From positions 384,001 to 448,000 of the forward strand of contig OY761556.1 of the NCBI GenBank assembly GCA_963664705.1: a DNA stretch of 64,000 nucleotides, written 5' to 3'. The notes beneath the pieces were generated by a model that saw only the letters and a list, made by a program, of their open reading frames with translations, was not told the origin of the DNA and made no database searches. The DNA is from Acidobacteriota bacterium. GTDB lineage: Bacteria; Acidobacteriota; UBA6911. The translations under genes and the position numbers were made by a program. This document shows, in pieces, positions 12,660-56,228 of the stretch; position 1 is the stretch's first letter, and each line of letters opens with the position of its first letter.

Positions 12660-13019
12660 TTCTTTCGCCCCTGTCGGGGCTTGCCTATTCTGCGATCGAG
12701 ATCCAGGGGTTCGCTGCGCTCACCCCTGGCTACATTCTATCGGGCCTCCGGCCCTGACTAATCAAAGCCAACTCCGGGCCTTGAGGAAAATCGGAGGCAA
12801 TTTGGATAGTCTGCCAACTTGCAGTTTGCGGGTCCCGGAGCTTAAATATCCGACTGAATCAATAAACGGATATTTCGGATCGTACCAGTATTTTCCTCCA
12901 AACCGGTCAATCCAATGGCAGGCAGCGCGCCGAGGGCGCGCCAGAAAATAGACAGGGGAGAGCGAAGCGAACCCCTGGAATGAAAGCAGAAAAGACGGAG
13001 CCCGGTAGGGGCGAAAGAA
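12660..13019. repeat. REPIN-like element: two inverted ~97-bp multi-hairpin arms around a ~165-bp spacer
   Basis: Left arm TTCTTTCGCCCC...TCCAGGGGTTCGCTGCGCTCACCCCTGGCTA. The reverse complement of 12924-13019 reads TTCTTTCGCCCC...TCCAGGGGTTCGCTTCGCTCTCCCCTGTCTA. Confidence 0.85.
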
Positions 13020-39102: not shown

Positions 39103-40293
39103 ATGGCTAAGGCATTGGAAGGCGTCAGGGTGTTGGATTTTACGCAATATTTGTCTGGTCCCCACTGCACATCGGTTTTGAGTGAACTGGGCGCGGATAT
39201 CATCAAAATCGAGATGCCGGGCAAGGGAGAACCCGAGCGGCAAGCCATGCCCAAAACTCCAAAGAAAGAGTCCTATCAATTTCTCTCCTATAATCGAGGA
39301 AAGAAAAGCATCACCCTGAACCTCAAGAGCCCCCAAGGTATTGAAGTGGCCAAAAAGCTGGCGGCCAAAGTGGATGTCCTCGTCGAGAACTTTGCGCCTG
39401 GCGGCATGGACCGACTGGGTTTGAGCTATGACGAAATACGCAAAATCAATCCGGGGATTGTCTATGCATCCATTTCCGGCTTCGGTCAGACCGGTCCGCG
39501 CCGCAACGACGTCAGCTATGACGTGGTTGCCCAGGCCATGGGAGGCCTGATGAGCGTTACCGGGTATGCAGGCGGCGAACCCCTGAAGGCGGGGATTTCT
39601 CTCGGCGATTACATGGGCGGATATAACGGCGCCATCGCTATTCTGGCTGCGCTCTATTATCGAAAAGTAACCGGAGAAGGTCAGGCCATTGACATATCGA
39701 TGCAGGATGGCATCTGGGCAATGGTTTTCCCCGATCGAGCCAACTACTTCGACACCCATGAAGTCCCCAAAAGATTCGGCAACAAGCTCAGCAGTTCCGC
39801 TCCTTTCGGTGCTTACAATGCCAAAGATGGATATGTGGTGATCTGTACGATTACGGATCCTCAATGGCACAAAGTCCTCCAGGCAATGGGCCGGGACGAT
39901 TTGATCACCGAGCCGCGTTTTGCCACGCGCGAAATGCGAACCAGGAACATGGAAGAGGTTGACGGTATGGTACAGGCGTGGTGCCAGCAGAAGACGGTGG
40001 ATGAGGTCTTCGCGGTATTAAAGGAATTTGGCGTGCCCTGTTCGCCGCTGCCGTCTTTCGACCAGGTTGCCAGCGATCCACACCTGCTGAGCAGAGAGAT
40101 GATTGTTGAGGTGGAGCAGCCGGTTTCCGGGAAAGTAAAGCTCAGCGGTTCCGTCTATAAAATGACCAAGACCCCGGGCAACCGCAAAATGAGAGTTCCG
40201 GAGGTTGGCGAGCACAACCAGGAGGTGTATGGCGGGATCCTCGGACTTGATGCTCAGGAAATGAAGAAGCTCAAAGACGATTCCATTATCTAA
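39103..40293 (+). CDS. Family III CoA-transferase (CaiB/BaiF)
   Basis: ALEGVRVLDFTQ..SGP, NRGKKSITLNLK, DVLVENFAPG, YASISGFGQTGP and catalytic Asp in LGDYMGG. Confidence 0.95.
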   Translation: MAKALEGVRVLDFTQYLSGPHCTSVLSELGADIIKIEMPGKGEPERQAMPKTPKKESYQFLSYNRGKKSITLNLKSPQGIEVAKKLAAKVDVLVENFAPGGMDRLGLSYDEIRKINPGIVYASISGFGQTGPRRNDVSYDVVAQAMGGLMSVTGYAGGEPLKAGISLGDYMGGYNGAIAILAALYYRKVTGEGQAIDISMQDGIWAMVFPDRANYFDTHEVPKRFGNKLSSSAPFGAYNAKDGYVVICTITDPQWHKVLQAMGRDDLITEPRFATREMRTRNMEEVDGMVQAWCQQKTVDEVFAVLKEFGVPCSPLPSFDQVASDPHLLSREMIVEVEQPVSGKVKLSGSVYKMTKTPGNRKMRVPEVGEHNQEVYGGILGLDAQEMKKLKDDSII

Positions 40294-40312
40294 ATCTAAT
40301 GATGCAGTTCTT

Positions 40313-40375
40313 TCCTTCTTCCCCATTTTTCAATATCGGGGCCTGCCTCCGATATTGAAAAATGGGGAAGAAGGA
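40313..40375. terminator. Perfect 27-bp inverted repeat downstream of the CoA-transferase
   Basis: TCCTTCTTCCCCATTTTTCAATATCGG, 9-nt loop, CCGATATTGAAAAATGGGGAAGAAGGA. Confidence 0.6.
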
Positions 40376-40446
40376 GTCGATCCCGGATTTTTGCTTGTTT
40401 TTGTTCCGCCCTGCGAAACAGAGTTCCCCTAGGTGCATTTTTCTTG

Positions 40447-40475
40447 TTGACAAAATCGAGAATTCGATTTAAAAA
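40447..40475 (+). promoter_or_regulatory. Putative sigma70 promoter with a palindromic operator in the spacer
   Basis: TTGACA-17 bp-TAAAAA; the spacer region is AAATCGA-gaat-TCGATTT. Confidence 0.45.
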
Positions 40476-40581
40476 GATCCTTTGCTAGTTACGCAAGGTC
40501 TGGATCTATCCCCGCACCAGGTTATAGATTCTTCCGACAGAGCCGGCACTATTTTTTTTCTATTAACTTTGGAGGTAACCC

Positions 40582-41250
40582 GTGACCGATCAGGAATTTT
40601 TAGATGTACTTACATCGAGAAAAAGCATCCGGCGATACAAACCGGATCCGGTACCAGACGAGATGATCGACAAGATCCTCGAGGCAGCCCGATGGGCACC
40701 GACAGGTGAAAATTACCAACCGTGGAGATTTATCGTAGTCCGCGATCAGGAAACCAGGAACAAGATTGGCGATCTCTCCAAGCAGGGAAGCGGATCGCGT
40801 ATGACCTCCTGGTACTGCCTCAGCGAATTGCAGCAGAGATTCGAAGGAATTGAAGACCCGGTCAAGAGAGCGGAAGTGCTTGAGTTCATGTATTCCGGAA
40901 GAGTGTCCGAATTCTGCAAGCAGGCGCCGGTGGTCATTGCTGTAATTGGTGACTTGAGAGTAGGAAGCGTTGACGTGCCTTATGATCTTTGCGCGGCGAT
41001 GGAAAACATGATCCTTCAGGCTCACCAGATGGGATTGGGCTCCTGCTGGGTATATGGTCCGGTCGCCAGCACGAGAGATGCCATCCGATTTAAGGATATC
41101 CTGGGCATCCCGCAGGGAATGGGCTATTACAAGGTGCTCTCTTATCTTGCAGTCGGGTATCCCAAGGAACAGCGCAAGCATCCGAGACCCAAACTGCCGC
41201 TTTCTGAAATGGTTTTCTGGGAAAAATTTGGAAACAAGGAGAGGATCTGA
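40582..41250 (+). CDS. Nitroreductase family flavoprotein
   Basis: SRKSIRRY, EAARWAPTGEN.QPWRFIVV, ENMILQA..MGLGSCW and VGYP. GGAGG RBS with GTG start. Confidence 0.92.
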   Translation: MTDQEFLDVLTSRKSIRRYKPDPVPDEMIDKILEAARWAPTGENYQPWRFIVVRDQETRNKIGDLSKQGSGSRMTSWYCLSELQQRFEGIEDPVKRAEVLEFMYSGRVSEFCKQAPVVIAVIGDLRVGSVDVPYDLCAAMENMILQAHQMGLGSCWVYGPVASTRDAIRFKDILGIPQGMGYYKVLSYLAVGYPKEQRKHPRPKLPLSEMVFWEKFGNKERI

Positions 41251-41801
41251 TGGATAGCATAAAGTATTGCAACGAATTGCTGGCAAGGGTTGAAGCTCTC
41301 ATGTATCAGGAGCTCTCCGGCATGGCCCACTGGAAGTGTGAATTTGTGGGTGCTGATTTTATCCGCGCTCAGAAAATTGAAGGAACGACGGTTGAGGAAG
41401 TAACGGAAAGCTGCATCAAAGCGATGAAGGCTGCCGGGCTCGTCTCCGACGTAACCTACAAAACCAGCCCTGACGGCATCATGCTCAAGCTGAAGATCAA
41501 GAACTGCATCCATCATGAAAAGGAAGTTCTTGTTGAAGCGGAAGGCGTCGATCCGTACATCTGCCCTATCGCCAACATGATTCTGGACCAGATTCACGAG
41601 AAGCTGAACTATACGACGAGCTACAAGTCCAAACAGGCTATCGATAAAGATAAGAAGCAGTGCTTGATCTACAATGCTCTTTACAAGACCGGCGAGCAGA
41701 TCGGTCAGATATCGGATTGGCTGAAGGACGATGAAGACAGGGAATGGCTGGAGAATCAGCCTTCGCAGATCCTTGCCGCAGCGGACAGAAAGAAGAAATA
41801 G
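41250..41801 (+). CDS. Hypothetical protein with Cys/His cluster (possible V4R-like ligand-binding fold)
   Basis: Start overlaps the nitroreductase stop codon; KIKNCIH...YICP...C pattern. Confidence 0.6.
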   Translation: MDSIKYCNELLARVEALMYQELSGMAHWKCEFVGADFIRAQKIEGTTVEEVTESCIKAMKAAGLVSDVTYKTSPDGIMLKLKIKNCIHHEKEVLVEAEGVDPYICPIANMILDQIHEKLNYTTSYKSKQAIDKDKKQCLIYNALYKTGEQIGQISDWLKDDEDREWLENQPSQILAAADRKKK

Positions 41802-42001
41802 CTGCATGATTGTCCGGGCTCTGAAGGCCCGAAATCCATCGGAAGCCGCGCGAGAACGCGGCTTCCATATGGACCCTCTGTATTTATCCTCCGTTCAAAC
41901 TCCAATTCGCAATTTTTTATATCTGCAAGAGAAGAGGCTGTCTTTGTAGAATAGCCATAGGCTTTGCCGCGTGCATTCGCGGCTTAATCAGTGAGGACGA
42001 T

Positions 42002-42352
42002 ATGCCAGGGTTGAGCGCAGCCATGAAGGGCAGGATTTTCGAAGCGCTGGATGCCACCAGTTTCAGGCAACGGGGCTTCCATGTGGATTATGATGAAAAG
42101 AATGACGTGCTTGTGACGATCACCCGCTTCACGTATCGGTTCACGCTAAATTCGACGGATGCCGGATTTGTTACTGGCGAGTATCCCGGCATCGCTTCGG
42201 AAAAAGCCGAGATAATGCAAAGAAGCGATTTTGAATCGTGCCTTCGTGCCATCCGTGAATGGGCGACAAGAATCCTGGACAGGGAGGAGTCCGCCATTCT
42301 TGATGAATTTGGAGGTGTGGCTGATCGCGATCCCTCGCTTCCCCTGAAGTGA
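42002..42352 (+). CDS. Hypothetical protein
   Basis: GAGGA RBS; the ORF fills the gap between neighbours; no recognisable motif. Confidence 0.6.
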   Translation: MPGLSAAMKGRIFEALDATSFRQRGFHVDYDEKNDVLVTITRFTYRFTLNSTDAGFVTGEYPGIASEKAEIMQRSDFESCLRAIREWATRILDREESAILDEFGGVADRDPSLPLK

Positions 42353-42376
42353 AGGCAGACCACGCTCCGGGCGGCA

Positions 42377-43354
42377 TTACCAGGCAGCCGCATCCATTGC
42401 CAGCTTTATCACCCCGTCTTCGTGCGTTTCGTACATTTCAAACGCTCTCTGCGCTTCGCGGATGGGCAGTCTGTGGGTGCAAAAGCTCGTCAGCTCCCGT
42501 TGATTTGCCATGAAGAGATCCTGGGCCTTCATCAGATACTCTTTCCATGCCGGCGTGACGGTCCCAATCAGGACCGCATTTTTCCGAAAGAAAGTTTCAT
42601 ATTCCAGCGCATAGACATTGTGGTCCGGGACTCCAAAGGCGAGAACGGTTCCACGCTTTTGCACCAGTTCCAGTGCATCGTTCAGGGTGTCCATCTGGTG
42701 TCCAACCGCTTCAATCACTATGTCCACAGGCTTCCAGTTGCTGCCAGCCGCCCGCATCCCGTGAACGACCTCAATCGCACTGCCGACTATGGTTTCGCCG
42801 GCTCCGAGTTCCTCCGCTTTTTTGCAGCGGTTCTCAAACGGATCGATGCCAATGATTCGGCCCGCGCCTCTTTTGTGCGCAAGCCAGCAGAACATCAGTC
42901 CTATGGACCCCAGACCCAGTACGGCAATTGATTTCCCCTCGATCTCACCTAGACGGTCCATTGCGTTTATGACCGTGGAGAGAGGCTGGATGATGCAGGC
43001 GGCTCCCGGGTCCATGATCTTTGGATTTAGGAGAATAGTCCGAGCGGTCTGAGCCAGGAAATACTCGGCAAGCCCCTGGTTGCCGTCCGGAATCGAAAGC
43101 ACCCGGTCTCCCGGTTTGAATTGCGAAGACGCGCTTGCCACGATCTCTCCGATGCATTCGTGTACCGGTGCGCCCGGGGGCATCGGATATGTCTGATGTC
43201 GCTTTTTCCCGGTAAAGAAAGGGATATCGCTTCCGCAAAGCGAAACCCAGGCCGTTCGGACAAGGAGGTGTTCGCTGCTGCCTTGCGGCAAGGAGGGCAC
43301 TGGCATTTCCACTGGTTCAAGAAAGCGCGGCTTTACGGCGTGGAGCAGTTTCAT
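42377..43354 (-). CDS. Zn-dependent medium-chain dehydrogenase (threonine/sorbitol-DH-like)
   Basis: LCGSD, VHECIG, VLGLGSIG and IEAVG. Structural-zinc lobe absent. Start at MKLLHA. Confidence 0.88.
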   Translation of the reverse strand: MKLLHAVKPRFLEPVEMPVPSLPQGSSEHLLVRTAWVSLCGSDIPFFTGKKRHQTYPMPPGAPVHECIGEIVASASSQFKPGDRVLSIPDGNQGLAEYFLAQTARTILLNPKIMDPGAACIIQPLSTVINAMDRLGEIEGKSIAVLGLGSIGLMFCWLAHKRGAGRIIGIDPFENRCKKAEELGAGETIVGSAIEVVHGMRAAGSNWKPVDIVIEAVGHQMDTLNDALELVQKRGTVLAFGVPDHNVYALEYETFFRKNAVLIGTVTPAWKEYLMKAQDLFMANQRELTSFCTHRLPIREAQRAFEMYETHEDGVIKLAMDAAAW

Positions 43355-43595
43355 TGCATTCCCTTTCTGGCAATCGGCGAAATTTCCGGCGGAAAAGCAG
43401 CCGGTAATTCCATGAATCAGCCAAGGATGATAGTTCGCGCGATGTGAGGCGTCAATCATCCAGATCCTCTGTTTCCGGGTTCACAATCCAGGCAATCACC
43501 GGCACAATCCGTCCCAGGTCAAAGGGGGCACCAATTCCCTGCGATTGCTCGCCACTTATGTGTAGATATGCCAACAATATGCAAAGTCATATTCC

Positions 43596-43624
43596 TTGAC
43601 TGCGCCTGGAAAGAAAATTAGGAT
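43596..43624 (+). promoter_or_regulatory. Putative sigma70 promoter of TBDT 43900
   Basis: TTGACT-17 bp-TAGGAT; identical boxes and spacing at 47914-47942. Confidence 0.65.
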
Positions 43625-43766
43625 TGGCTCATATTGGGTTGATTCCTCACATTACGGTGCTGGTTTTCTCCGAACGATGATGAAGGGCTTTTGCTCTTGT
43701 TCGATGTGAGATTCCCGCGCATCACCAACTGATTCTATCTGGCCTTATACGACATAGCATTGCGAT

Positions 43767-43793
43767 CCTGTTCGATCACCCTGGCTCGAACAG
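43767..43793 (+). promoter_or_regulatory. Conserved leader hairpin, copy 1 (candidate cis-regulatory element)
   Basis: CCTGTTCGA-TCACCCTGGC-TCGAACAG. Confidence 0.55.
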
Positions 43794-43899
43794 TCATTGT
43801 GCTGGCCAGGGACCGCTGTCGGTATTGGCCTATCCACCATGGTTCCGGCATCGGCCCTCATTCTCAATTTCTTTCTCAACCTGAGGGAGGACATGTTTC

Positions 43900-46800
43900 A
43901 TGCGATCAATCATTAAAGCATTCGGCTGTGTGCTCATCCTTTCAGCGATGGCCCTTGCGCAGGGCGATCGCGGCACGATTACGGGAGCAGTGACCGATCC
44001 GGCAGGCGCCGTGATTGGTGGCGCGGCAGTCAAAGCAAAAAACGCGGCAACCGGCGCCGAGTATTCAACAATAACTACCAACACCGGCAACTACACTCTC
44101 GCCCAGTTGCTGCCCGGCCCTTATGAACTATCGGTTTCCATGTCCGGCTTCAAAACGCTTGCCCGGACAGGTCTCACCGTGGTTTCCGCGCAAATAATGC
44201 GCATCGACGCTGCCTTGGAAATAGGCGCAATCTCCGAAACCGTTTCCGTGGATGCCGCCGCTGCCCTGCTGAAGACGGAGAGCGGCGAACTGAGCCATAC
44301 CATCCAGGGGGAGTTGCTGAACAACCTACCCGTTTTTTCCATTGGCAGCTATGCAGGAACGACAGGCATCCGGAACCCATACGCTGTGATCCAGATGCTT
44401 CCGGGCGCCGATTTTACCCCCGATAACAACGTTAAGGTCAATGGCGCGCCGAGCAACACCCAGGGGTTGCGTGTCGAGGGCATGGATGCCACCAACAACA
44501 TGTGGCAGCAGATGTCCCAATATACGCAGACCGGCGTCGAAGCCGTCCAGGAATTCGGCATACAAACAAGCAACTACGCGGCCGAATACGGGCAGGCGGG
44601 AACGGCTGTGTTTAATTTGACGATGAAGTCCGGCACGAACCAGCTTCATGGATCCGCTTATGACTACTTCGTGAACGAAGCCCTGAATGCCGGAACGCCG
44701 TTTACGTCTGACGGGACGGGGGGAAAACTTCGTCCCCGCAATCGAAGAAACGACTTCGGCTTCACAGTCGGCGGGCCCGTGTATCTGCCCAAAATGTTCA
44801 ACGGTCGCGACAGGGCGTTCTTCTTTTTCAGTTTTGAACAGTATCGCCAGGCTACCACCACGAACAGCTTTGTGACAGTTCCCACTCTTGCCATGCGGAA
44901 AGGAGATTTCAGTGCGATCCAGGGTGCCGCTCCCCTGAAAAACTCCAGCGGCAATGTAATCACTGATGTGCTCGGCCGCCCGGTCTACCAGAATACGATC
45001 TATGACCCGAGCACAGAACGAGTTGTCAATGGAGTCCGGGTATGGGATCCCTTCCTCGGCAACAAGATCCCGCAGGAAAGATGGGATCCGGCTGCATTGG
45101 CCGTACAGAGCTACATGTATGAGCCGGGTTATGGTGGCGCGGATGCCTCGAAACTGACCAACAATGCGATGCTGACCGTTCCCGCATCCGTTGTGACCTG
45201 GATCCCATCAGTCAAAGTGGATTATTCGATTAGTCCAAGAGCCAAGGTATCCGGGTTTTGGTCAAGGAATAGCTATGCACCAGGTGGTTCTGCCGGCTTG
45301 CCCGCGCAGATCACTTCCTTCATGCCGACTCCATCCGTGAATCACACAGTCCGGCTCAACTTCGATTACACTGTCAAGCCCACCATGCTGCTGCATCTTG
45401 GTGCGGGACTTATGCAGACTGTCCTGACTTACAATGCCGGAGGACATACTCCCCAAAAGGATCTTAAAATACCTGGAGGAACAGACGCCAATCCGTATCT
45501 TACAACCATGATCAATACTACGTATGGTGGCTATTCTCCGGCGACAGGCCCGGCCATGGATGTGCGGTTTGTCGATCTGAAGCCGACGGCAAATCCCAGC
45601 TTGACCTGGATCAAGGGGAATCACAGTTACAAATTTGGCGGAGAACTGGTCGTGGAATCCCATCCGGACTATAGCAGGAGCTACGCCAATAACTATTACT
45701 ACTTCTCTCCAAACCAGACCGCGGATCCTTCCCTGAGCTTGAGCGGCACAACCCTCCCCTCCGGGACAGCCATCGGGTTCGCCTATGCCAGCTTTCTCAT
45801 GGGGAATTACAACCAGGTAACCAGCAACACGACCGCAAAAGGGCACCTGGGAAACCACGCCTTCGCTTTTTACGCGCAGGACTCGTGGAAGATCACGTCC
45901 AAAGTTACCTTGGATTACGGCTTGCGCTACGATTTCCAAACCTACCTGAAGGAGCAGTATGGCCGAATGGGCAGTCTGGTGCCCTCGGCGATGAACCCCA
46001 AAGTTGGTCTGCCGGGCGCAATTCAGTATGAAGGCAATGGGCAGGGACACTGCAACTGTGCATTTGGGAAAAACTATCCGTATGCCTTTGGCCCTCGGCT
46101 CGGGCTTGCGTGGCAGATGCTTCCCAAGACCGTATTACGTGCCGGCATCGGCATCTCCTACGGAAAGACAACAGAACTCGGCTACCTGAGCAATCAGTTG
46201 TCAGGTATGGTGAGTTATCAGAACCCGGGGCAGGGCCTGCCGGCCGGGCAATTATCGACAGGCGTACCTCCCGGCGTTACGCCGACGTGGCCTACAACGG
46301 ACACAAGCGCCTATCCGCATCTTCCCTCTCTCGACCCTCCGGCGATGTTTTACGATTACAACATGGGCCGGCCGTCCAGGACTGTCCAGTGGAGCTTCGG
46401 GATCCAGCGGGAAATCACCAAGGATTTGCTTCTGGAAGTCTCCTATGTTGGCAACCGCGGCGCATGGTGGTATGCCGGAGCATTGAGGGATTGGAACGCC
46501 TTAACCCCGGAGGATCTGAAAAGCAAATGGGGGCTTGACGTCGGAGTCAAGGCCGACCGGGACTTGCTGGTGAATACTTTAGGTGCTGCCCAGGCCAAGT
46601 ATCCCGGGCGGTTTACCACGCCCTTTGCCGGCTTTCCTGCGGCAACCGCAACGCTCGCTCAGGCGCTTGCTCCATTCCCTCAATTCTCAAGCATGAACCT
46701 GATCTTCGCGCCGTTGGGGCGTACCTGGTACGATGCTCTGCAGGCCAACCTCAACAAGAGGTTCGCGCATAATTTCTCTTTCCAATATAGTTTCACCTGG

Positions 46801-47574
46801 CAGAAGGAGCTCTATTCTGGAGCCGAAAACTCCTATTGGTTCGGCGGTCCCAGGAATGCTCTGATCAATGACGTGGCCAACCGGTCGGTCAACAAATACA
46901 TGTCAGGCTTGTCACGTCCACTAATGCATAACATAGCTCTGAGTTACACGACACCCAGGGTTTTCGCCCAATACAAGATGTTATCCCTGTTCTTGCGAGA
47001 CTGGCAGATCAACATCCAGGCTCGTTACAGGAGCGGGTATCTGCTTCAAGTGCCAGTTGCGTCCAGCAACCTGCCTAACGCTCTCCACCGCTCGGCTACC
47101 GGCGGGGCAGTCGCTGGAACCCCAACTACCTTTGCAAACAGAGTGCCGGGACAACCGGTGTTCATGGACCAGAGCGGCAACGCAATCGACATCAACAGCC
47201 GCAATTGGGACCCGAGCCAGGCCTTCGTACTTAATCCGAAAGCGTGGACGGAACCGGATGAGGGGAAGTTCGGCACCTCTGCGGCCTACTATAGTGACTA
47301 CAGGTCATTTCGCCATCCCCAGGAAAATGTGGGGTTGGCTCGTAACTTCCGGTTCGGCCGTGATGGTCGGATGAACCTGAATCTTCGGGCCGAATTCACC
47401 AATATCTTCAACCGGCTTTACCTGCCAGACCCAACAGCAACAAATGCCGGGGCAACACAAACCAAATCCTCTACCGGTCAACCGACTGGCGGATTCGGAT
47501 ATATCAACCTTCAGAGTTCTCAAATCGCGTCGAATGTCCGGATGGGCCAGATTGTCGCCCGCCTCAGTTTCTAA
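43900..47574 (+). CDS. TonB-dependent transporter, acidobacterial type
   Basis: Signal peptide, AQGDRGTITGAVTDPAGA, TSNYAAEYG, FYAQDSWKIT.K.TLDYGLRYD and C-terminal ARLSF. Confidence 0.93.
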   Translation: MRSIIKAFGCVLILSAMALAQGDRGTITGAVTDPAGAVIGGAAVKAKNAATGAEYSTITTNTGNYTLAQLLPGPYELSVSMSGFKTLARTGLTVVSAQIMRIDAALEIGAISETVSVDAAAALLKTESGELSHTIQGELLNNLPVFSIGSYAGTTGIRNPYAVIQMLPGADFTPDNNVKVNGAPSNTQGLRVEGMDATNNMWQQMSQYTQTGVEAVQEFGIQTSNYAAEYGQAGTAVFNLTMKSGTNQLHGSAYDYFVNEALNAGTPFTSDGTGGKLRPRNRRNDFGFTVGGPVYLPKMFNGRDRAFFFFSFEQYRQATTTNSFVTVPTLAMRKGDFSAIQGAAPLKNSSGNVITDVLGRPVYQNTIYDPSTERVVNGVRVWDPFLGNKIPQERWDPAALAVQSYMYEPGYGGADASKLTNNAMLTVPASVVTWIPSVKVDYSISPRAKVSGFWSRNSYAPGGSAGLPAQITSFMPTPSVNHTVRLNFDYTVKPTMLLHLGAGLMQTVLTYNAGGHTPQKDLKIPGGTDANPYLTTMINTTYGGYSPATGPAMDVRFVDLKPTANPSLTWIKGNHSYKFGGELVVESHPDYSRSYANNYYYFSPNQTADPSLSLSGTTLPSGTAIGFAYASFLMGNYNQVTSNTTAKGHLGNHAFAFYAQDSWKITSKVTLDYGLRYDFQTYLKEQYGRMGSLVPSAMNPKVGLPGAIQYEGNGQGHCNCAFGKNYPYAFGPRLGLAWQMLPKTVLRAGIGISYGKTTELGYLSNQLSGMVSYQNPGQGLPAGQLSTGVPPGVTPTWPTTDTSAYPHLPSLDPPAMFYDYNMGRPSRTVQWSFGIQREITKDLLLEVSYVGNRGAWWYAGALRDWNALTPEDLKSKWGLDVGVKADRDLLVNTLGAAQAKYPGRFTTPFAGFPAATATLAQALAPFPQFSSMNLIFAPLGRTWYDALQANLNKRFAHNFSFQYSFTWQKELYSGAENSYWFGGPRNALINDVANRSVNKYMSGLSRPLMHNIALSYTTPRVFAQYKMLSLFLRDWQINIQARYRSGYLLQVPVASSNLPNALHRSATGGAVAGTPTTFANRVPGQPVFMDQSGNAIDINSRNWDPSQAFVLNPKAWTEPDEGKFGTSAAYYSDYRSFRHPQENVGLARNFRFGRDGRMNLNLRAEFTNIFNRLYLPDPTATNAGATQTKSSTGQPTGGFGYINLQSSQIASNVRMGQIVARLSF

Positions 47575-47589
47575 TCTCTCCCTGGATTG

Positions 47590-47624
47590 TGCTGGGGGCC
47601 GGCCTAAGCTGGCCCCCAGCATTT
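47590..47624 (+). terminator. Rho-independent terminator-like hairpin
   Basis: TGCTGGGGGCCGGC / GCTGGCCCCCAGCA followed by TTT. Confidence 0.6.
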
Positions 47625-47625
47625 C

Positions 47626-47691
47626 AAAACGCCGCGATTGCACGAATTCCCCAAGAATGCTTTGGGCAATCCGTGTCATTCGCGACGTTTT
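47626..47691. repeat. CACGAATT-type nonamer-periodic hairpin
   Basis: AAAACGCCGCGATTGCACGAATT ... AATCCGTGTCATTCGCGACGTTTT; homologous to 51874-51936. Confidence 0.6.
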
Positions 47692-47913
47692 TGAAAGCTG
47701 CTGCCGCAGTGAGCAACCTGCGATAAGAACAGATTGTGGCCCGCTTCAATTTCTGGCAAATCTCCTGTTTTTCGTGGGAGCTGGTCAGGCCGGCTCTCAT
47801 CCCCCCTCTTACCCGCCATCAATCGCCAATATCCTATTTCGAATCAATCTAATTTTCTTTGCAACTCTTGTATTTTCCTTAGGTTTCCAGAATATTAGTT
47901 TGAATTAATCTGC

Positions 47914-47942
47914 TTGACTGTTATTGCAATCGCAAATAGGAT
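47914..47942 (+). promoter_or_regulatory. Putative sigma70 promoter of TBDT 48202
   Basis: TTGACT-17 bp-TAGGAT. Confidence 0.65.
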
Positions 47943-48063
47943 GGTGCCACAAATGGGAGTGTTCTACGCAAAGGGATAATATTCTACGCATCCCGAAATC
48001 CCCGGGCGATTCTCCCAGCGCTTTACAGATTTATCTGATTTCGCTTTAACAATCTGTTGCTTG

Positions 48064-48091
48064 CCCTGTTCGACTCCCTGGCTCGAATGGG
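48064..48091 (+). promoter_or_regulatory. Conserved leader hairpin, copy 2
   Basis: CCCTGTTCGA-CTCCCTGGC-TCGAATGGG. Confidence 0.55.
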
Positions 48092-48201
48092 TGTATTTGC
48101 TTGAGATAGCGGATGACCGGCCGTAGTGCAATTGGATTTGCGGCTGGTAAGAAGCTTTTGTTTCGTGCGTCTCGGTTTGTCAACCCTAGGAGGTATTACT
48201 G

Positions 48202-51200
48202 ATGCGTTTATTGCTGAAGGCATGCTGTTGCGTGCTCCTTCTGGCAGGAATTGCCCTTGCCCAGTCGGACCGCGGCACCATCACCGGCACCGTCACTGAT
48301 CCTGCAGGCGCTGTAGCTCCGAATGCTTCGATCAAGGCGAAAAACATAGGGAACGGTGCTGAATATCAGACATTGAGTACCAATACCGGCAATTACACAC
48401 TTGCCCAATTGCCATCTGGAAGCTATGAACTCACGGTTGCAATGACTGGATTTAAGACATTTGTCCGTCAGGGAATCACAGTCGCCGCAGCCCAAACCCT
48501 CCGCGTTAATGTCAGCCTCGAGGTGGGAGCCATTTCGGAGACCGTCACGGTCAGTGAAGATGCTCCTCTGCTCAAGACTGAAAGCGGGGAATTAAGCCAC
48601 AACGTCCGTTCGGATACGCTGGATTCGCTCCCGGTTTTGTCTATCGGCGGAAGCGCAGGCAGTACCGGTATTCGAAATCCATATGCCGTTATGCAGGTTC
48701 TGCCGGGCGCCGACTGGCGGCCGGATGCCAGCGTCAGAGTCAACGGTGCTCCCGGCAACTCGCAGGCTTTGCGCGTTGAGGGTATGGACGCGACCAATAA
48801 CATGTGGCAGCAACAAGGCCAATATACCCAGCAGGGTGTAGATGCTATTCAAGAGTTTGCTGTCGCCACCAGCAATTATGCGGCTGAATTCGGGCAGGCA
48901 GGATCTGCCGTATTCAACCTGACCATGAAGTCCGGTACGAATGCGCTGCATGGGAGTGTTTACGAATACTTTGTTAATGAGGCCCTCAACGCTTCGACGC
49001 CGTATTCGGAAGATAGTGCTGGAAACAAGAACCGGCCACGTTCCCGCCGGAACGATTTCGGATTCACCCTCGGTGGACCGATCTACGTGCCGAAAGTGTA
49101 TGATGGCCGTGACAAATCCTTCTTCTTTTTCAGCTTTGAGGAATATCGCCAGGCCACAACCACAAAGACCGCTGCGACGGTTCCAACGCTCAAGATGCGC
49201 ACCGGTGATTTCAGCGAAATCCTAGGAACAACCGCGATCGGCACGGATATTCTGGGCCGACCTATTTATGAGAACCAGCTATATGACTGGCGCACTGAAC
49301 GCCTGGTGAACGGCACGCGTATCTGGGATCCGTTCAAGAACAATCAAATTGATTCCTCTTTGTTTGATTCATCGGCAGTGCTGATTCAGGCGATGTTTCC
49401 CAAGCCGGAGACGTCCGGGCTGACTCAGAACTGGAATCAACAGACCGCAAACTCAACCCTGACCTTTATTCCTTCGGTCAAGATTGATTATTCGCTCAAC
49501 AACAAGGCCAAGTTGTCCGGATACTGGTCGAGGAATTCCTTCAATACGACCGCGGATGATGGCCTCCCAATCGCCATCACGGCTGGTGTACCCAATACCT
49601 TCCTGTCGCACACGCTGCGCGTCAATCTGGATTACACCATCACCCCGACCATGTTGTTACATGTCGGCACAGGGCTCATGGTCAACCGGATGAGACAGTT
49701 GGCTCCGCAAGGAGTGGATACAAAAGCCACCTTCGGAATCAACACGCAGGCAAAGGGTTTCCCATATATCGCTGGACCTGTCAGCACCAGCTTTGGTGGG
49801 TTCTCCCCGACGATGGGTTCGGTCATGAACTCCCAGCTTGATAATCTCAAGCCGACTGCGAATCCGAGTTTGACCTGGATTCGTGGGAACCACACCTATA
49901 AGTTTGGCGGAGAGTTGATCGTCGAATCGCATCCGAGCTACAGCGAAACATTCGCCAACAACTGGTTTACCTTTGCAACGGCTCAGACCGGCGATCCTTC
50001 GCTGGCCTATACCAACCTCGGTGGGAAAACGACCGGTTTTGCATACGCCAGCTTTCTTACCGGCCGCGTAGGCAGCGGGTATACAAATGCACCGAGCAGA
50101 GGACATCTGGGATCCCACTCCATTGCTTTTTATGCACAGGACTCCTGGAAGATCACGCCCAAGATCACCCTGGATTACGGGCTGCGTTATGATTACCAGA
50201 CCTATCTTAAGGAACAATACGGACGGTGGGCCAACTTCTCCCCAACCGCTTTGAATCCGAACATTATCAATCCCGTGACCAATCAGCCCATGCCGGGCGC
50301 CACTATTTTTGAGGGCAGCGGAGCGGGTCACTGCAACTGCAGTTTTGCAGATACCTACAAGTTTGCCTTTGGACCGCGCCTTGGTTTGGCTTGGCAGGTG
50401 ATGCCAAAGACCGTCATTCGCGCCGGTATCGGTATTTCCTACGGCCGAACCCCTGAACTTGGCTACCTGAACAACACGCTGTCAAGTTTTGTGACCTATG
50501 GCGCCACTGCTCCTGGTTTGGCTGCCGCCCAGCTGCATGACGGCCCTCCTGCGGCCTATACGGTTGTGTGGCCTGACATTCGCGCGGATGCATTCCCCAA
50601 ATTGCCCAGCCTTGGCCCACCGGCAATGGCGGTCGATCGCAACGCGGGCCGTCCTCCTCGGACCGTTCAGTGGAGCTTCGGTATTCAACGTGAAATTACC
50701 AAGGACCTGATGGTTGACCTTTCATATGTAGGCAACCGCGGTGCCTGGTGGCAGGCCAATCCGTTGGTTGATATCAACGGCGTAACCCCCGAATACCTGA
50801 AGACCAAGTGGGGATTGGATGTCAACAGTGCGGCAGATAGGACCCTGCTGACAACATCCTACGCGAACCTCTCGGCTGCGGACAAAATTCGATTCCCGTT
50901 GCCGTTTACCAAATTCCCTACAAGCTACAATCTGATCCAGGCGCTTCGGCCTTTCCCGCAGTTCAGCACCATCTCGATGATGTGGGCTCCGCTGGGACGC
51001 ACCTGGTACGATTCGGCTCAGCTCAAAGTAACGAAGAGGTTTTCGCATAACTTTGATTTGAGCTATAGCTTCACCTTCCAGAAAGAAATGACGATGGGTT
51101 CGGAACTCTCGTATCAGCTCTTCGGCACCATCAACCCGATGGTCGGCGATGTTGCAAATCGGGCATCCAATAAATACATCTCCGGTTTGTCGAGACCGTT

Positions 51201-51825
51201 CATGAACGTCGTTGCCACGAGCTACACGGTTCCTAAGGTTTTCCCTGGAAACAAAATCGTATCGCAGATTCTGCGCGACTGGCAGTTCAGCGCGCTGTTG
51301 CGCTACACCAGCGGACAGCCGCTCCAGGTGCCGAACTCTACTGGTTCGACTCAGACACTGTTGGCCCGCGCGAACAATACGTTTGCCAACAGAGTGGCCG
51401 GACAATCGCTCTTTGCCGATCAGAATGGCAACGCGATTGACATCAATGGGAATTACGATCCAGCCACCACGTTCGTGCTGAATCCCAAAGCATGGACATC
51501 GCCAGCGGATGGACAGTTCACCACTTCCACCGCCTATTACAACGATTATCGCGGCCGCAGGCATCCGACGGAAAACATGAGCTTGGCTCGTAATTTCCGG
51601 ATGGGACGCGACGGTCACTATACTCTGCAATTAAGGGCCGAGTTCAACAACATCTTCAACCGTCTGTATGTTCCCGACCCCAGCAACCTGACCGCTGGTG
51701 CAACCCAAACCTATAAAGCCGGTACAAACCTGACCACTGGCGGATTTGGGTACATCAACATGAAGGCTGCAGCAGTAGCCAGCAACGTGCGTACAGGACA
51801 AGTCGTCGCACGCTTCAGCTTCTAG
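48202..51825 (+). CDS. TonB-dependent transporter, paralog of 43900-47574
   Basis: Long shared tracts (GIRNPYAV, LRVEGMDATNNMWQQ, LKPTANPSLTWI, GHCNC.F) and C-terminal ARFSF. Confidence 0.93.
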   Translation: MRLLLKACCCVLLLAGIALAQSDRGTITGTVTDPAGAVAPNASIKAKNIGNGAEYQTLSTNTGNYTLAQLPSGSYELTVAMTGFKTFVRQGITVAAAQTLRVNVSLEVGAISETVTVSEDAPLLKTESGELSHNVRSDTLDSLPVLSIGGSAGSTGIRNPYAVMQVLPGADWRPDASVRVNGAPGNSQALRVEGMDATNNMWQQQGQYTQQGVDAIQEFAVATSNYAAEFGQAGSAVFNLTMKSGTNALHGSVYEYFVNEALNASTPYSEDSAGNKNRPRSRRNDFGFTLGGPIYVPKVYDGRDKSFFFFSFEEYRQATTTKTAATVPTLKMRTGDFSEILGTTAIGTDILGRPIYENQLYDWRTERLVNGTRIWDPFKNNQIDSSLFDSSAVLIQAMFPKPETSGLTQNWNQQTANSTLTFIPSVKIDYSLNNKAKLSGYWSRNSFNTTADDGLPIAITAGVPNTFLSHTLRVNLDYTITPTMLLHVGTGLMVNRMRQLAPQGVDTKATFGINTQAKGFPYIAGPVSTSFGGFSPTMGSVMNSQLDNLKPTANPSLTWIRGNHTYKFGGELIVESHPSYSETFANNWFTFATAQTGDPSLAYTNLGGKTTGFAYASFLTGRVGSGYTNAPSRGHLGSHSIAFYAQDSWKITPKITLDYGLRYDYQTYLKEQYGRWANFSPTALNPNIINPVTNQPMPGATIFEGSGAGHCNCSFADTYKFAFGPRLGLAWQVMPKTVIRAGIGISYGRTPELGYLNNTLSSFVTYGATAPGLAAAQLHDGPPAAYTVVWPDIRADAFPKLPSLGPPAMAVDRNAGRPPRTVQWSFGIQREITKDLMVDLSYVGNRGAWWQANPLVDINGVTPEYLKTKWGLDVNSAADRTLLTTSYANLSAADKIRFPLPFTKFPTSYNLIQALRPFPQFSTISMMWAPLGRTWYDSAQLKVTKRFSHNFDLSYSFTFQKEMTMGSELSYQLFGTINPMVGDVANRASNKYISGLSRPFMNVVATSYTVPKVFPGNKIVSQILRDWQFSALLRYTSGQPLQVPNSTGSTQTLLARANNTFANRVAGQSLFADQNGNAIDINGNYDPATTFVLNPKAWTSPADGQFTTSTAYYNDYRGRRHPTENMSLARNFRMGRDGHYTLQLRAEFNNIFNRLYVPDPSNLTAGATQTYKAGTNLTTGGFGYINMKAAAVASNVRTGQVVARFSF

Positions 51826-51948: not shown

Positions 51949-54441
51949 CTATATTTTCCCCAGGGCCTTCAGGACTCTTGCGGGCGTCAACGGATAATCC
52001 AGCGCCCACTTGCCTGTCGCGTTATGGATCGCGCCCGCGGTGACTCCCGACAGGGATGCGCCGGTAGCTTCTCCAATGCCGCAGGCTCCATAGGATGAGT
52101 ATCCCATGTGGCTTTCATTGAGGATGCATTCAATATCCGGGTAATCATTCATCGTTCCGATGTGATACCCGATGTTGTCAAAATTCAGCCCCACGCCGGT
52201 GCGCGGACAGTAAATCTTTTCCTCGGTTGCGCTTCTCCCCAGCCCCATGATCGCGCCGCCGTATTGTTGAGCCTCAGCGCTGCGTCGGCTGAACAGATGG
52301 CCGACGTCATTGGTGCACACGAGGTTTGTGACGAGCACTTCCCCGGTTTCGGTGTCCACTTCGACCTCGATAAAATGCGCCTGCCGGCTCATGATGTACA
52401 TCTGCGGATGTGGTTTACCATCAAGCGTCAGCCCGCTGACGTTGGGCACAACCGGATGGACAATGGCCGGATCATCGCCCCAGTTCGGACTCGCGACTTC
52501 CTTAACGCTTTTTCTGCTTTTCGGATTTGCTTTCTCAAAAACAAACCCGTCCTTGACATCGAGCTCTTCCGGCTTTTTGCCGGCAAAAGATACGGAGCTC
52601 TTGCTCGGTGCAAACCCGCGCGGCGGGCCTCCCATCCCAGCCGGCTTGATTGCGTATTCAATGATCTTTCGTTTCAGTTCGCGTGCAGCAACGACGAGTT
52701 GGGGTGTTGATTGACCAATCCCCATGGCTCCGCCGGGAACCCAGAATTGGAAGGTGTCGGCATCCGTCCGTTGATTCTGAACAATAATGTCTTCGTAATT
52801 CAGGCCCGATTCTGAAGCGACGCAGTGGCGGAATGAAGACTCGGTATCCATGCCGAAGTCGGGACGCAAACCTACGATGGTAAGCTTCCCCTGGCGCAGA
52901 ATAAGGCATGCAAACTGCCTGCCGGCTATCCAGCTCCATTCATTGATATGCATGAAACCAAGACCGTGCATCCTGCCGTTAGGAAGTTTTCTTGTGCCAG
53001 GCGCATGCCATTTCTTATCCCATTGAATGGCGTCTTTTCCCAGTTTGATTATTTCCCTCAGGCTTTGTCGCTGGGGGAATGCGTTTTCTTTCTGGTATTT
53101 TGTTACCCAATCCCAATCGTGCCCCTGGCAGCCATCGTTCTTAAGCGCGACTTCCGTGGGATCCAAGCCAAACTCAGCCGCAACCTTGGAAAACATTACA
53201 TGGTGTGGCACGCAGCATTGGGACCCGTGCCTGAAACATACGTGATGTCCGTGGTTGATCAGCGCCCATTGTTGCGTATTGCGGAAATTGTGAATGCTGG
53301 TGGATTCGTGCGTTTTGTCGATGTGAAGTTCACCGACGGGTCCTGTCACATCCCAGTCGACTGCCGTGATGGTCCCGTCTTTTTTTGCCCCTACCTTGCA
53401 GCGATAGATCGCGGCATCATCTCCGTTTGCATAAAAATTGCTCTCGTCATAAAGAAGCTTTACCGGCCGGTCTTTTGCCCTTTTGGCAAGAATGACCGCG
53501 AGTCGGATAAAGGCCGTGGAGTATCCCAGCCATGCAATACCACCGTACCAGGCACCCTGGTACGGCACCGTAACCGTCAGTTTGTTGTGCTCGCAAAGCG
53601 GCGGGATAGGCTGCATGCGGTCCGTGGGCTTCGCAGCGGCTTCAACATCAACACTGCCATAGCCGAGCGAGACCTGAGACAGCCCTGCCTGTACGGTGCT
53701 CGGCATAGTCAGGACGGGGTGCATATGGGCGGTATGGTGTGGCCACAGATCCAGGTGGTCTCCGCGCCATTGAGCGACGCAAGCCATTGCCTCCACACCC
53801 GCCGGCGTATTCGTGCCCCTGGTAAACGTGTATTCAATCGTCTTGTCTGCCTCTGCAAATCCTTTCTCGATGTCCCCGATTTCAGTCGATTTGGTGGGCA
53901 CCAGGGTATTGGGATCCTTCAAGTCTTTTCCCAGCCGCAGTATTTCCGGCATGATCTTGGGCGCATCCGGCTTCAAGGATTTTTCCATGTCCAGGATGAA
54001 GGGCAGCTCTTCCCACTCAATCTGAATCATCCTGAGGGCGCGGTCGCATAGCTCCTCGCTGTCGGCTACGACAACAACTCCCATCGGATGCTGGAAGAAA
54101 TCGCCGGTTCGCGGAAGGGTAAGAATGTTGTATCGACTGGAGCAGTATCCTCCAGTTGAGTTTTCAAACTGAATGTCGGGATCGTCGAACCGCAGGATAT
54201 CCCGGACGCCAACAAGGGCTGCCGCCTTGCTTGTGTCCATTTTTGTTATTTTTGCATGCGCGTACGGGGATGTGAGTATCTTCGCGTACAGCATCCCCGG
54301 AAGAACCACATCTCGCGTAAAAACTGCCTGGCCGGATAGCTTGTCATGGGCGTCCTGACGGGACATTCCCTTGTCAACAGGTGAGACTTCCGGCGGTTTC
54401 CATGTCCACGGTCTGAAATCTTCCGGCATTCCATTCTCCAT
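51949..54441 (-). CDS. Xanthine oxidase/aldehyde oxidoreductase family molybdopterin-binding large subunit
   Basis: R.DA.DKLSG.A.FT.D..LPGMLYAKILTSPYAHAKI, VGAKKDG.I, AHFIEVEVDTETGEV, NDVG, GIGE and YPLTP.RVL. Start at 54441 or 54429. Confidence 0.92.
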   Translation of the reverse strand: MENGMPEDFRPWTWKPPEVSPVDKGMSRQDAHDKLSGQAVFTRDVVLPGMLYAKILTSPYAHAKITKMDTSKAAALVGVRDILRFDDPDIQFENSTGGYCSSRYNILTLPRTGDFFQHPMGVVVVADSEELCDRALRMIQIEWEELPFILDMEKSLKPDAPKIMPEILRLGKDLKDPNTLVPTKSTEIGDIEKGFAEADKTIEYTFTRGTNTPAGVEAMACVAQWRGDHLDLWPHHTAHMHPVLTMPSTVQAGLSQVSLGYGSVDVEAAAKPTDRMQPIPPLCEHNKLTVTVPYQGAWYGGIAWLGYSTAFIRLAVILAKRAKDRPVKLLYDESNFYANGDDAAIYRCKVGAKKDGTITAVDWDVTGPVGELHIDKTHESTSIHNFRNTQQWALINHGHHVCFRHGSQCCVPHHVMFSKVAAEFGLDPTEVALKNDGCQGHDWDWVTKYQKENAFPQRQSLREIIKLGKDAIQWDKKWHAPGTRKLPNGRMHGLGFMHINEWSWIAGRQFACLILRQGKLTIVGLRPDFGMDTESSFRHCVASESGLNYEDIIVQNQRTDADTFQFWVPGGAMGIGQSTPQLVVAARELKRKIIEYAIKPAGMGGPPRGFAPSKSSVSFAGKKPEELDVKDGFVFEKANPKSRKSVKEVASPNWGDDPAIVHPVVPNVSGLTLDGKPHPQMYIMSRQAHFIEVEVDTETGEVLVTNLVCTNDVGHLFSRRSAEAQQYGGAIMGLGRSATEEKIYCPRTGVGLNFDNIGYHIGTMNDYPDIECILNESHMGYSSYGACGIGEATGASLSGVTAGAIHNATGKWALDYPLTPARVLKALGKI

Positions 54442-54449
54442 TGTAAAAA

Positions 54450-54523
54450 GATTCCCGATGTCAAATTTCGGATTCCAGATTCCCGATCTCCAGTCCGAAA
54501 TCGAGAATCTGGAATTTAGAATT
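54450..54523. repeat. Inverted heptamer arrays (GATTYCN)
   Basis: GATTCCC GATGTCA AATTTCG GATTCCA GATTCCC GATCTCC ... CGAAATC GAGAATC TGGAATT TAGAATT. Confidence 0.7.
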
Positions 54524-54529
54524 CACTCA

Positions 54530-56080: not shown

Positions 56081-56175
56081 AGAAATACCTCTTGGGAAAT
56101 AGAGTTTAGTCCAGGTCTCCTCTGGTCAGAGATGGGGGGTATTATACTAGTGTTTAAGGAAGGGAAGTTAGTGAT

Positions 56176-56221
56176 AAAAAAGCGCCATGCATTGCATAAA
56201 ATCAAGCAATGCATGGCGCTT
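56176..56221 (-). terminator. Rho-independent terminator
   Basis: AAGCGCCATGCATTGC / GCAATGCATGGCGCTT with an A-run on the plus strand (U-run on minus). Confidence 0.8.
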
Positions 56222-56228
56222 GGTCCGA

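What the first reader, a model, noticed from the sequence alone, without database searches (positions are those of the whole stretch)
43596..48201. Conserved hairpin in the long 5' leaders of both TBDT paralogs: candidate new cis-regulatory RNA
Seen: both genes have TTGACT-17-TAGGAT about 260-275 nt upstream of the ATG. The leaders are largely diverged except for CCTGTTCGA-(TCA/CT)CCCTGGC-TCGAA, about 110-115 nt before the start (43767-43793 and 48064-48091), and TCAACC just before the RBS. Copy 1 closes with Watson-Crick pairs (CTG/CAG); copy 2 has TGG, which still pairs through two G-U wobbles. That pattern favours RNA structure, and the loop CCCTGGC is invariant. I cannot match it to a riboswitch I know. 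Inference: an RNA element or protein-binding site co-regulating the transporters.
Basis: partly seen in the sequence, partly recalled or inferred. Interest (0 to 1): 0.7.

Follow-up and report, generated by a model that had tools for sequence, protein, structure and literature searches.

The report
Conserved hairpin before acidobacterial transporter genes
Both transporter genes carry, about 120 bases before their start codons, a small hairpin whose stem changes in matched pairs across related bacteria while its loop stays fixed, so it is likely an uncatalogued RNA control site that an as yet unidentified regulator, probably a protein, would recognise.

Summary
Each TonB-dependent transporter (TBDT) leader has a 7-8 bp hairpin (43768-43793, 48065-48091) with loop A-N2-3-CCCUGGC-N. 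It is the only significant likeness between the two leaders. I found 21 canonical copies, all 114-144 nt before the start codon of one TBDT subfamily: 12 in five genomes of one uncultured acidobacterial genus and 9 in metagenome contigs. The stem covaries (95% paired, 5 of 7 pairs with double changes, 0/500 shuffles); G-U pairs outnumber A-C 10:2, pointing to the mRNA strand. No Rfam family matches. Only 10 of 40 subfamily leaders carry it, and four genomes have the loop sequence about 56 nt before the start on a different, weakly supported stem. Tests for a loop-Shine-Dalgarno pseudoknot, a conserved cis partner, a leader peptide, a sigma-54 promoter and a partner small RNA were negative. Best reading: an RNA site that presents its loop to a trans-acting regulator, more likely a protein than a small RNA; a riboswitch is less likely. 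No partner is identified and transcription is only hinted at. The scan probably noted this element before in another genome (e1-6718984).

The parts
43596..43624 (+). sigma-70-like promoter candidate of TBDT1 (TTGACT-17-TAGGAT)
   Evidence: TTGAC-type sites upstream of 18 of 23 homologous leaders; start site not mapped
43768..43793 (+). conserved hairpin, copy 1: 7-bp stem, 12-nt loop
   Evidence: (z -3.08 on +, -1.38 on -)
43779..43785 (+). conserved loop heptamer CCCUGGC, copy 1
   Evidence: CCCUGG in 21 of 21, following C in 20 of 21 (11 of the 21 were found by a search that required CCCTGG)
43805..43811 (+). GCCAGGG, exact complement of the loop; peculiar to this copy
   Evidence: strong downstream complement in only 3 of 21 leaders
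43808..43858 (+). predicted second hairpin, sequence not conserved
   Evidence: fold prediction only
43869..43891 (+). predicted local hairpin over the Shine-Dalgarno of TBDT1, with TCAACC in and around its loop
   Evidence: not shared with copy 2
43900..47574 (+). TBDT1, 1224 aa, CarboxypepD_reg + OMP_b-brl_4/TonB barrel
   Evidence: 58% identical to TBDT2
47914..47942 (+). sigma-70-like promoter candidate of TBDT2
48065..48091 (+). conserved hairpin, copy 2: 8-bp stem with two G-U pairs, 11-nt loop
   Evidence: (z -2.58 on +, -0.86 on -)
48076..48082 (+). conserved loop heptamer CCCUGGC, copy 2
48116..48148 (+). predicted second hairpin, sequence not conserved
   Evidence: fold prediction only
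48180..48193 (+). TCAACC followed by the Shine-Dalgarno AGGAGG of TBDT2
   Evidence: TCAACC exact in 3 of 21 homologues
48202..51825 (+). TBDT2, 1207 aa, same domain layout as TBDT1

Best explanation
The element is a covarying hairpin upstream of one TBDT subfamily that likely folds in the 5' leader of the mRNA and likely holds its CCCUGGC loop open for a trans-acting RNA-binding protein, which would tune translation or decay of these transporter messages. Shown here: conservation of stem pairing and loop sequence, the strand bias, and the tie to the start codon. Inferred: that the leader is transcribed through the hairpin, that something binds the loop, that the binder is a protein, and that expression changes. 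The direction of the effect is not determined.
For: Stem: 95% of 140 cells paired against 90.6% shuffled, 5 of 7 pairs with double changes, 0/500 shuffles, slid controls 28-54%. G-U 10, A-C 2 among 147 cells. Copies sit in three TBDT lineages 51-66% identical at the N-terminus while the rest of the two window leaders is unalignable. A copy not in the training set was found before the same subfamily with a further compensatory change (G064:C5). Loop-to-ATG is 114-145 nt while promoter-to-loop is 83-277 nt. Contigs from 4 of 4 RNA libraries laid cover the hairpin, and one joins it to the start of the coding region across 89 diverged bases. The closing G-C pair is invariant in 20 of 20 and the first loop A is at least 90% conserved, which fits shape recognition (inference). 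Cis explanations failed. All 5 motif-bearing genomes tested encode RRM_1 proteins and Hfq-like proteins. A bacterial RRM protein acting on TBDT (susC) translation is published for Bacteroides (PMC11697453, passages seen).
Against: No binder is identified. The RRM gene that lies next to or within about 5 kb of subfamily genes in 4 genomes is near-core, found in 26 of 30 genus genomes including those without the subfamily, so its position says little. CCCUGG hairpin loops are not enriched upstream of genes genome-wide (7 against a mean of 4.6 for 60 letter permutations), so there is no sign of a wider regulon. Only 10 of 40 subfamily leaders have the canonical form; intact genes have altered or lost it (L356, L345). 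One gene in another genus keeps the loop sequence without the stem, which fits a base-pairing partner better. The 11 pattern-found copies were chosen by eye for their stems, and many copies are close kin. The RNA-library contigs are from relatives, may include DNA, and no silent stretch was laid as control.
Confidence: 0.4

Rival explanations
1. The loop is the seed target of a trans-encoded small RNA carrying GCCAGGG, which would pair with it in a kissing interaction and change translation or decay.
For: A contiguous invariant heptamer in an exposed loop looks like a seed match (inference). The two single-base changes seen in otherwise intact loops are C to U (L239, L006), which a partner G tolerates. 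The loop sequence persists at another distance in four genomes and without the stem in G056. Hfq-like genes in 5 of 5 genomes tested. TBDT leaders paired by small RNAs are published: ChvR-chvT, including a site 59-70 nt before the start (PMC6237742) and FopS-susC (PMC11697453).
Against: Of 202 intergenic GCCAGGG sites in the genome, only 2 non-repeat sites had a terminator behind them, neither convincing. Three sites tested in five relatives were a Shine-Dalgarno region, a sigma-54-like promoter on the other strand and a small ferredoxin gene. This covers 3 of 115 non-repeat sites, so absence is not shown.
Confidence: 0.27
2. The hairpin is the core of a small riboswitch-like sensor that binds a metabolite or ion, perhaps the transported substrate, and switches ribosome access through the downstream hairpins.
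For: Long leader, fixed association with one transporter subfamily in varied gene neighbourhoods, and in 10 of 23 leaders a strong helix between the bases just 5' of the hairpin and the Shine-Dalgarno spacer that competes for the outer stem pairs.
Against: Only about 10 conserved bases in one loop, with no second conserved element. The long-range helix is weak across the alignment (17-43 of 500 shuffles reach it) and absent from both window copies (p 0.43, 0.76). Forcing the hairpin barely changes predicted Shine-Dalgarno access in most leaders. No Rfam match. Neighbouring genes give no common pathway.
Confidence: 0.12
3. The loop pairs in cis with its own Shine-Dalgarno region or another part of the leader (pseudoknot), so no outside factor is needed.
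For: CCUGG can pair with YYAGG, present before the Shine-Dalgarno in 15 of 21 motif leaders against 5 of 28 others (kin not independent). Copy 1, L216 and L189 have strong downstream complements.
Against: Loop-to-Shine-Dalgarno duplex energy is the same in motif and non-motif leaders (-5.5 and -5.6 kcal/mol, p 0.48), as is the energy to open the ribosome site (11.6 and 12.4, p 0.49). Downstream complementarity is not above shuffles overall (mean z -0.16, p 0.45). The loop shows no covariation with any partner.
Confidence: 0.08
4. It is a DNA-level site (operator, methylation site or sigma-54 -24 box) or an inherited remnant without function.
For: It is an inverted repeat; CTGGCAC resembles a sigma-54 -24 box and CCTGG is a CCWGG site (both recalled). 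It has been lost or altered in 30 of 40 subfamily leaders.
Against: Arms change in compensating pairs with G-U bias while the asymmetric centre is fixed. Distance to the promoter varies threefold. The sigma-54 -12 element is absent in 21 of 21. It survives where flanks are unalignable. In a gene with an ACG start and an internal TGA the loop has decayed.
Confidence: 0.13

Closest known systems
RbpB (RRM protein) and FopS small RNAs acting on susC leaders, Bacteroides thetaiotaomicron (PMC11697453; passages seen)
   Same: Post-transcriptional control at the 5' region of TBDT messages in a genome with many TBDT paralogues; RRM_1 proteins are present here too.
   Different: There the small RNAs pair at the translation initiation region and RbpB binds broadly in single-stranded RNA. 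Here the conserved site is a stem-loop 114-144 nt upstream, and neither a small RNA nor a bound protein is identified.
ChvR-chvT, Caulobacter crescentus (PMC6237742; passages seen)
   Same: A TBDT leader with a regulatory site well upstream of the start codon (-70 to -59) that overlaps a predicted stem-loop.
   Different: One target and a known small RNA with two pairing sites; the leader stem-loop is described as weak. Here a covarying hairpin is shared by many paralogues and no partner is known.
CsrA/RsmA-bound leader hairpins (recalled)
   Same: A short stem presenting a conserved loop in a 5' leader.
   Different: The loop is A-N2-3-CCCUGGC-N, not an ANGGA motif; it is far from the Shine-Dalgarno; CsrA was found in only 1 of 5 motif-bearing genomes.
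Riboswitches before TBDT genes (cobalamin/btuB) and the acidobacterial nadA NAD+-I motif (PMC6859854; search listing only)
   Same: A conserved structured leader tied to one gene family.
   Different: No Rfam match; far fewer conserved bases; no conserved switching platform.
U1A-type RRM recognition of a 7-nt sequence in a 10-nt hairpin loop (eukaryotic; recalled, no call)
   Same: Loop size, a contiguous conserved heptamer and an invariant closing pair.
   Different: Different sequence and domain of life; an analogy of shape only.

Membership tests
structured cis-regulatory RNA motif (candidate) | conserved secondary structure with covariation | tested here: met
   blind copy
structured cis-regulatory RNA motif (candidate) | consistently upstream of, and on the strand of, one gene family | tested here: met
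   the 11 top model hits in 51 family genomes all precede the subfamily
structured cis-regulatory RNA motif (candidate) | lies inside the transcript | tested here: inconclusive
   promoter-like site upstream in 18 of 23; RNA-library contigs cover it, no strand, start or DNA control
structured cis-regulatory RNA motif (candidate) | changes expression of the downstream gene | not testable with these tools
   needs reporter assays
known Rfam family (riboswitches, T-box, leaders) | score at or near a family's gathering threshold | tested here: not met
   no gathering hit; only unrelated weak hits
riboswitch | conserved expression platform (terminator or Shine-Dalgarno sequestration coupled to the aptamer) | tested here: inconclusive
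   long-range helix strong in 10 of 23, not in the window copies; ribosome-site opening energy not unusual
riboswitch | direct binding of a small ligand | not testable with these tools
   needs in-line probing
CsrA/RsmA site | GGA-containing loop, and CsrA in the genomes that carry it | tested here: not met
   loop lacks GGA; CsrA in 1 of 5 genomes, 87-98% complete
small-RNA target site | a conserved trans-encoded RNA with the complementary seed | tested here: inconclusive
   3 of 115 non-repeat intergenic sites tested in relatives, none a small RNA
leader-peptide or arrest-peptide attenuator (RAPP-type) | conserved translated upstream ORF across the element | tested here: not met
   0 of 23 leaders have a Shine-Dalgarno-started ORF over the loop in any frame; loop length changes by one base; stop codons in L179 and L220 in the Arg-x-Pro frame
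sigma-54 promoter | GG-N10-GC (-24/-12) | tested here: not met
   0 of 21
REP repeat | many dispersed copies, with CCCCTGG paired in the stem and a GTAG foot | tested here: not met
   2 copies in the genome with CCCTGG in the loop; the genome's real REP-like family is separate

The most novel reading that the evidence does not exclude
The hairpin is the sensing core of a new, minimal riboswitch class, or of a leader that reads another RNA directly (for example loop UGGC pairing with a GCCA tRNA end, as the T-box bulge does, without any T-box fold), and is the first post-transcriptional control element for the Oar-like transporters of Acidobacteriota, pointing to their unknown substrate.
Probability: 0.12. 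Interest if true: 0.85.

Novelty: new member of a known kind. Interest (0 to 1): 0.45.

Why it matters
These genomes carry dozens of orphan TonB-dependent transporters with no known substrate or regulation (40 TBDT-like genes in this genome). A defined 26-nt element with an invariant loop is ready bait for pull-downs, probing and reporters, and could identify a regulator or signal for this transporter subfamily. Its reach is narrow: one genus among the genomes searched, about a quarter of the subfamily's genes, and uncultured hosts as far as the record titles show, which limits both surprise and ease of testing.

Tried and rejected
Rfam at gathering and E-value level: nothing relevant. The window-type stem pattern found no copy in 50 other family genomes; relatives use a different stem sequence. 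Whole-leader folding is not unusually stable (z -0.91 and -1.77). Model search of 137 class genomes: 10 weaker hits were inspected, 8 of them from outside the family; 9 lie in long ORFs, and one intergenic hairpin (31.2 bits, G039) has a different loop and no gene start found behind it. Loop-Shine-Dalgarno pairing, unusual ribosome-site occlusion and a conserved cis partner were not supported; two of the 21 motif rows used a start 6-9 nt too early. The long-range helix is a sub-clade feature. Upstream ORF, sigma-54 promoter, REP origin: rejected. A tRNA T-arm reading was rejected because the 5' strand cannot pair with CCCUG (sequence inspection). A 16S rRNA stretch and one tRNA-Glu contain similar short words; treated as coincidence. 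No genome-wide enrichment of the loop. A 2-mismatch pattern for the short-leader form was mostly noise: of the 30 loci inspected most matches lay in ORFs, and one new copy before a TBDT was found. Laying RNA-library contigs on the whole locus showed relatives at mostly under 95% identity and cannot rank expression; lack of cover upstream of 43645 is not used as evidence. The careful tree did not finish; the quick tree was used. Paper searches showed no description of this motif in the listings; supplementary motif tables were not read.
Full report
Observation. The two genes at 43900-47574 and 48202-51825 encode TonB-dependent transporters with a CarboxypepD_reg domain and an OMP_b-brl_4 barrel, 58% identical; NCBIfam names no subfamily above cut-off. 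The hairpin is the only significant likeness between the leaders: local score 36 against a maximum of 29 in 1000 shuffles, and 16 without it. The exact core occurs twice in the genome, and the model finds no third copy above noise. Rfam has no match.

Homologues. I took close relatives of the protein in congeneric genomes, fetched 20 upstream regions and read 18 leaders. Four carried the same loop on a stem of different sequence (CCGCUCG/CGRGCGG). A looser pattern gave 67 matches in 51 family genomes. I examined 47 of them plus one further site of the own genome: 12 had a stem of 7 or more pairs; 9 of these lay outside long ORFs and all 9 preceded this subfamily, while 3 lay inside long ORFs. 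To avoid choosing on the stem, I then scanned for the loop hexamer 174-204 nt before the codons for DRGT(I/V)TG: 87 stretches in the genome collection and 120 (capped) in metagenomes. Of 211 matches, 54 rows were TBDT genes. Six were copies already known, 11 were new and recognisably homologous, and 37 rows (duplicates included, several from other acidobacterial families) were left out because they showed no homologous stem by eye; a few of those have other hairpins around CCCUGG that I could not tell from chance. Record titles for the genus-level hits read uncultured Acidobacteriota.

Covariation. On 20 copies the 7-bp stem is paired in 95.0% of 140 cells against 90.6% in shuffles, 5 of 7 pairs change on both sides, and no shuffle of 500 reaches either value; slid controls give 28-54%. 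RNAalifold recovers the same stem from the whole leader and nothing else. G-U pairs outnumber A-C 10 to 2 and both window copies fold better on the + strand. Caveats: close kin inflate these counts, 11 copies were picked by eye, and loop invariance is partly built in. Three checks do not share that bias. The 10 copies found from the protein side or by the model also all have CCCUGGC. The model found an untrained copy at 35.4 bits before a subfamily gene, with another compensatory pair. Contigs from four RNA libraries of four studies match at the hairpin; in one run a contig joins it to the coding start across 89 diverged bases, and in another a contig joins it to a block 24 nt downstream of the -10 hexamer. 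These contigs are from relatives and could be DNA.

Distribution. The 11 best model hits in 51 family genomes (32-57 bits) lie in five genomes of the genus, all before the subfamily; the next hit scores 25.8 bits, and six such weaker hits read by eye did not show the element before a TBDT. In 137 class genomes no convincing copy lies outside the genus. On a quick tree of 65 N-terminal sequences the canonical form falls in three lineages (support 94, 98, 100), 51-66% identical between lineages. Of 41 genus genes at E 1e-110 or better, 40 have a readable leader: 10 canonical, 3 with the loop sequence about 56 nt before the start, 4 altered, 23 without (my tally). A fourth short-leader copy came from a pattern search. 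The short form's stem is ambiguous (z -0.97 and +0.18 for two of them), so 'same loop on a new stem' is suggestive only. One altered loop belongs to a gene with an ACG start and an internal TGA, but others belong to open genes. One gene in another genus keeps the 11-nt loop sequence about 243 nt upstream without the stem.

RNA or DNA. Loop-to-ATG distance is 114-145 nt in 23 leaders, while TTGAC-type promoter candidates, seen in 18 of 23, lie 83-277 nt upstream of the loop. With the G-U bias and the fixed asymmetric centre, this favours a role in the message over an operator. No copy has a sigma-54 -12 element and none has a Shine-Dalgarno-started ORF over the loop.

Mechanism. Cis models did poorly. 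A helix joining the bases 5' of the hairpin to the Shine-Dalgarno spacer is strong in 10 of 23 leaders but absent from both window copies and weak across the alignment. The energy to open the ribosome site and the loop-Shine-Dalgarno duplex energy are the same in 21 motif and 28 non-motif leaders. Complementarity of the loop to the downstream leader is not above shuffles, although copy 1 and two others have strong complements. That leaves an outside partner. I searched the genome's 202 intergenic GCCAGGG sites for a small RNA and tested three in relatives; none was one. Hfq-like and RRM_1 genes are present in all five genomes tested, CsrA in one. An RRM gene lies close to subfamily genes in four genomes but is near-core in the genus. 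The loop is not enriched before other genes, and gene neighbourhoods share no pathway. I commit to a protein-recognised loop (0.40) over a small-RNA seed (0.27), a DNA site or remnant (0.13), a riboswitch (0.12) and a cis pseudoknot (0.08). The preference for a protein rests on the invariant closing pair and first loop base and on the failed, but thin, small-RNA search; it is an inference.

Comparison and novelty. The nearest published systems are RbpB/FopS on Bacteroides susC messages (PMC11697453; passages) and ChvR on Caulobacter chvT (PMC6237742; passages). It may work like either, but membership is not shown. Five paper searches (listings and abstract starts only) showed no description of this motif; supplementary motif tables of large screens were not read and could hold it. 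U1A, CsrA, T-box and sigma-54 features are recalled, not from calls. Verdict: a real, uncatalogued, narrowly distributed candidate cis-regulatory RNA hairpin; a new member of a known kind; interest 0.45.

Noticed in passing
window 12700-12760 (+) and about 12930-12990 (-); genome-wide: A REP-like palindromic repeat family with about 65 copies in the genome, many with a GTAG foot; its stem contains CCCCTGG. No associated transposase was looked for.
   Followed up: partly
G000:C1:4495182 (-) and 4491031 (-) leaders: A second tandem pair of the same TBDT subfamily; the first has a hairpin about 150 nt upstream with loop AAACCCUCGGCU, one base longer than the motif, on an A/U-rich stem.
   Followed up: partly
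L356:2815-2870 (-), L357, L041: A sub-lineage in which the hairpin at the same position has a zipped loop, GAAU-NYYGG-AUUC; possibly a second specificity.
   Followed up: partly
G000:C1:4899241 (-) and 2797187 (+) leaders; L096: More distant TBDT genes with CCCUGG in or near a hairpin loop at -48, -210 and about -70; not above background as a group (5 of 40 against 7.8%).
   Followed up: partly
L034, L035, L038; G000 leaders at 2648903 (+) and 2680592 (-): A conserved palindrome TGTCACA-N4-5-TGTGACA just upstream of the -35 hexamer of other TBDT genes, a likely transcription-factor operator; absent from the two window leaders.
   Followed up: no
L415 about 300-325 (-) = G000:C1 about 6838750-6838775: A sigma-54-like promoter (TGGCAC-N5-TTGCA) conserved with G024 in a 1.36 kb region without ORFs of 120 aa or more.
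   Followed up: no
window 43427-43455 (-): A promoter-like site (10 of 12) back to back with the TBDT1 promoter, facing the divergent Zn-dependent dehydrogenase gene; it lies inside the longest ORF call (42377-43459), so the true start is probably further in.
   Followed up: no
window 39103-43459 and 51949-58640: CoA-transferase III, nitroreductase, Zn-dehydrogenase, tannase/feruloyl esterase and two molybdopterin oxidoreductase large subunits flank the pair, suggesting aromatic-compound catabolism; not shared by other motif loci.
   Followed up: partly
window 43648-43678: A 31-nt block near the predicted 5' end of leader 1 is 30/31 identical in one RNA-library contig of a relative while the next 89 bases differ; it is not seen in the other aligned leaders.
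   Followed up: partly
L346 (G019:C49), L340 (G064:C4): Broken subfamily copies: one with an ACG start and an internal TGA, one frameshifted after about 140 codons with an intact hairpin, and one truncated fragment lacking it.
   Followed up: partly
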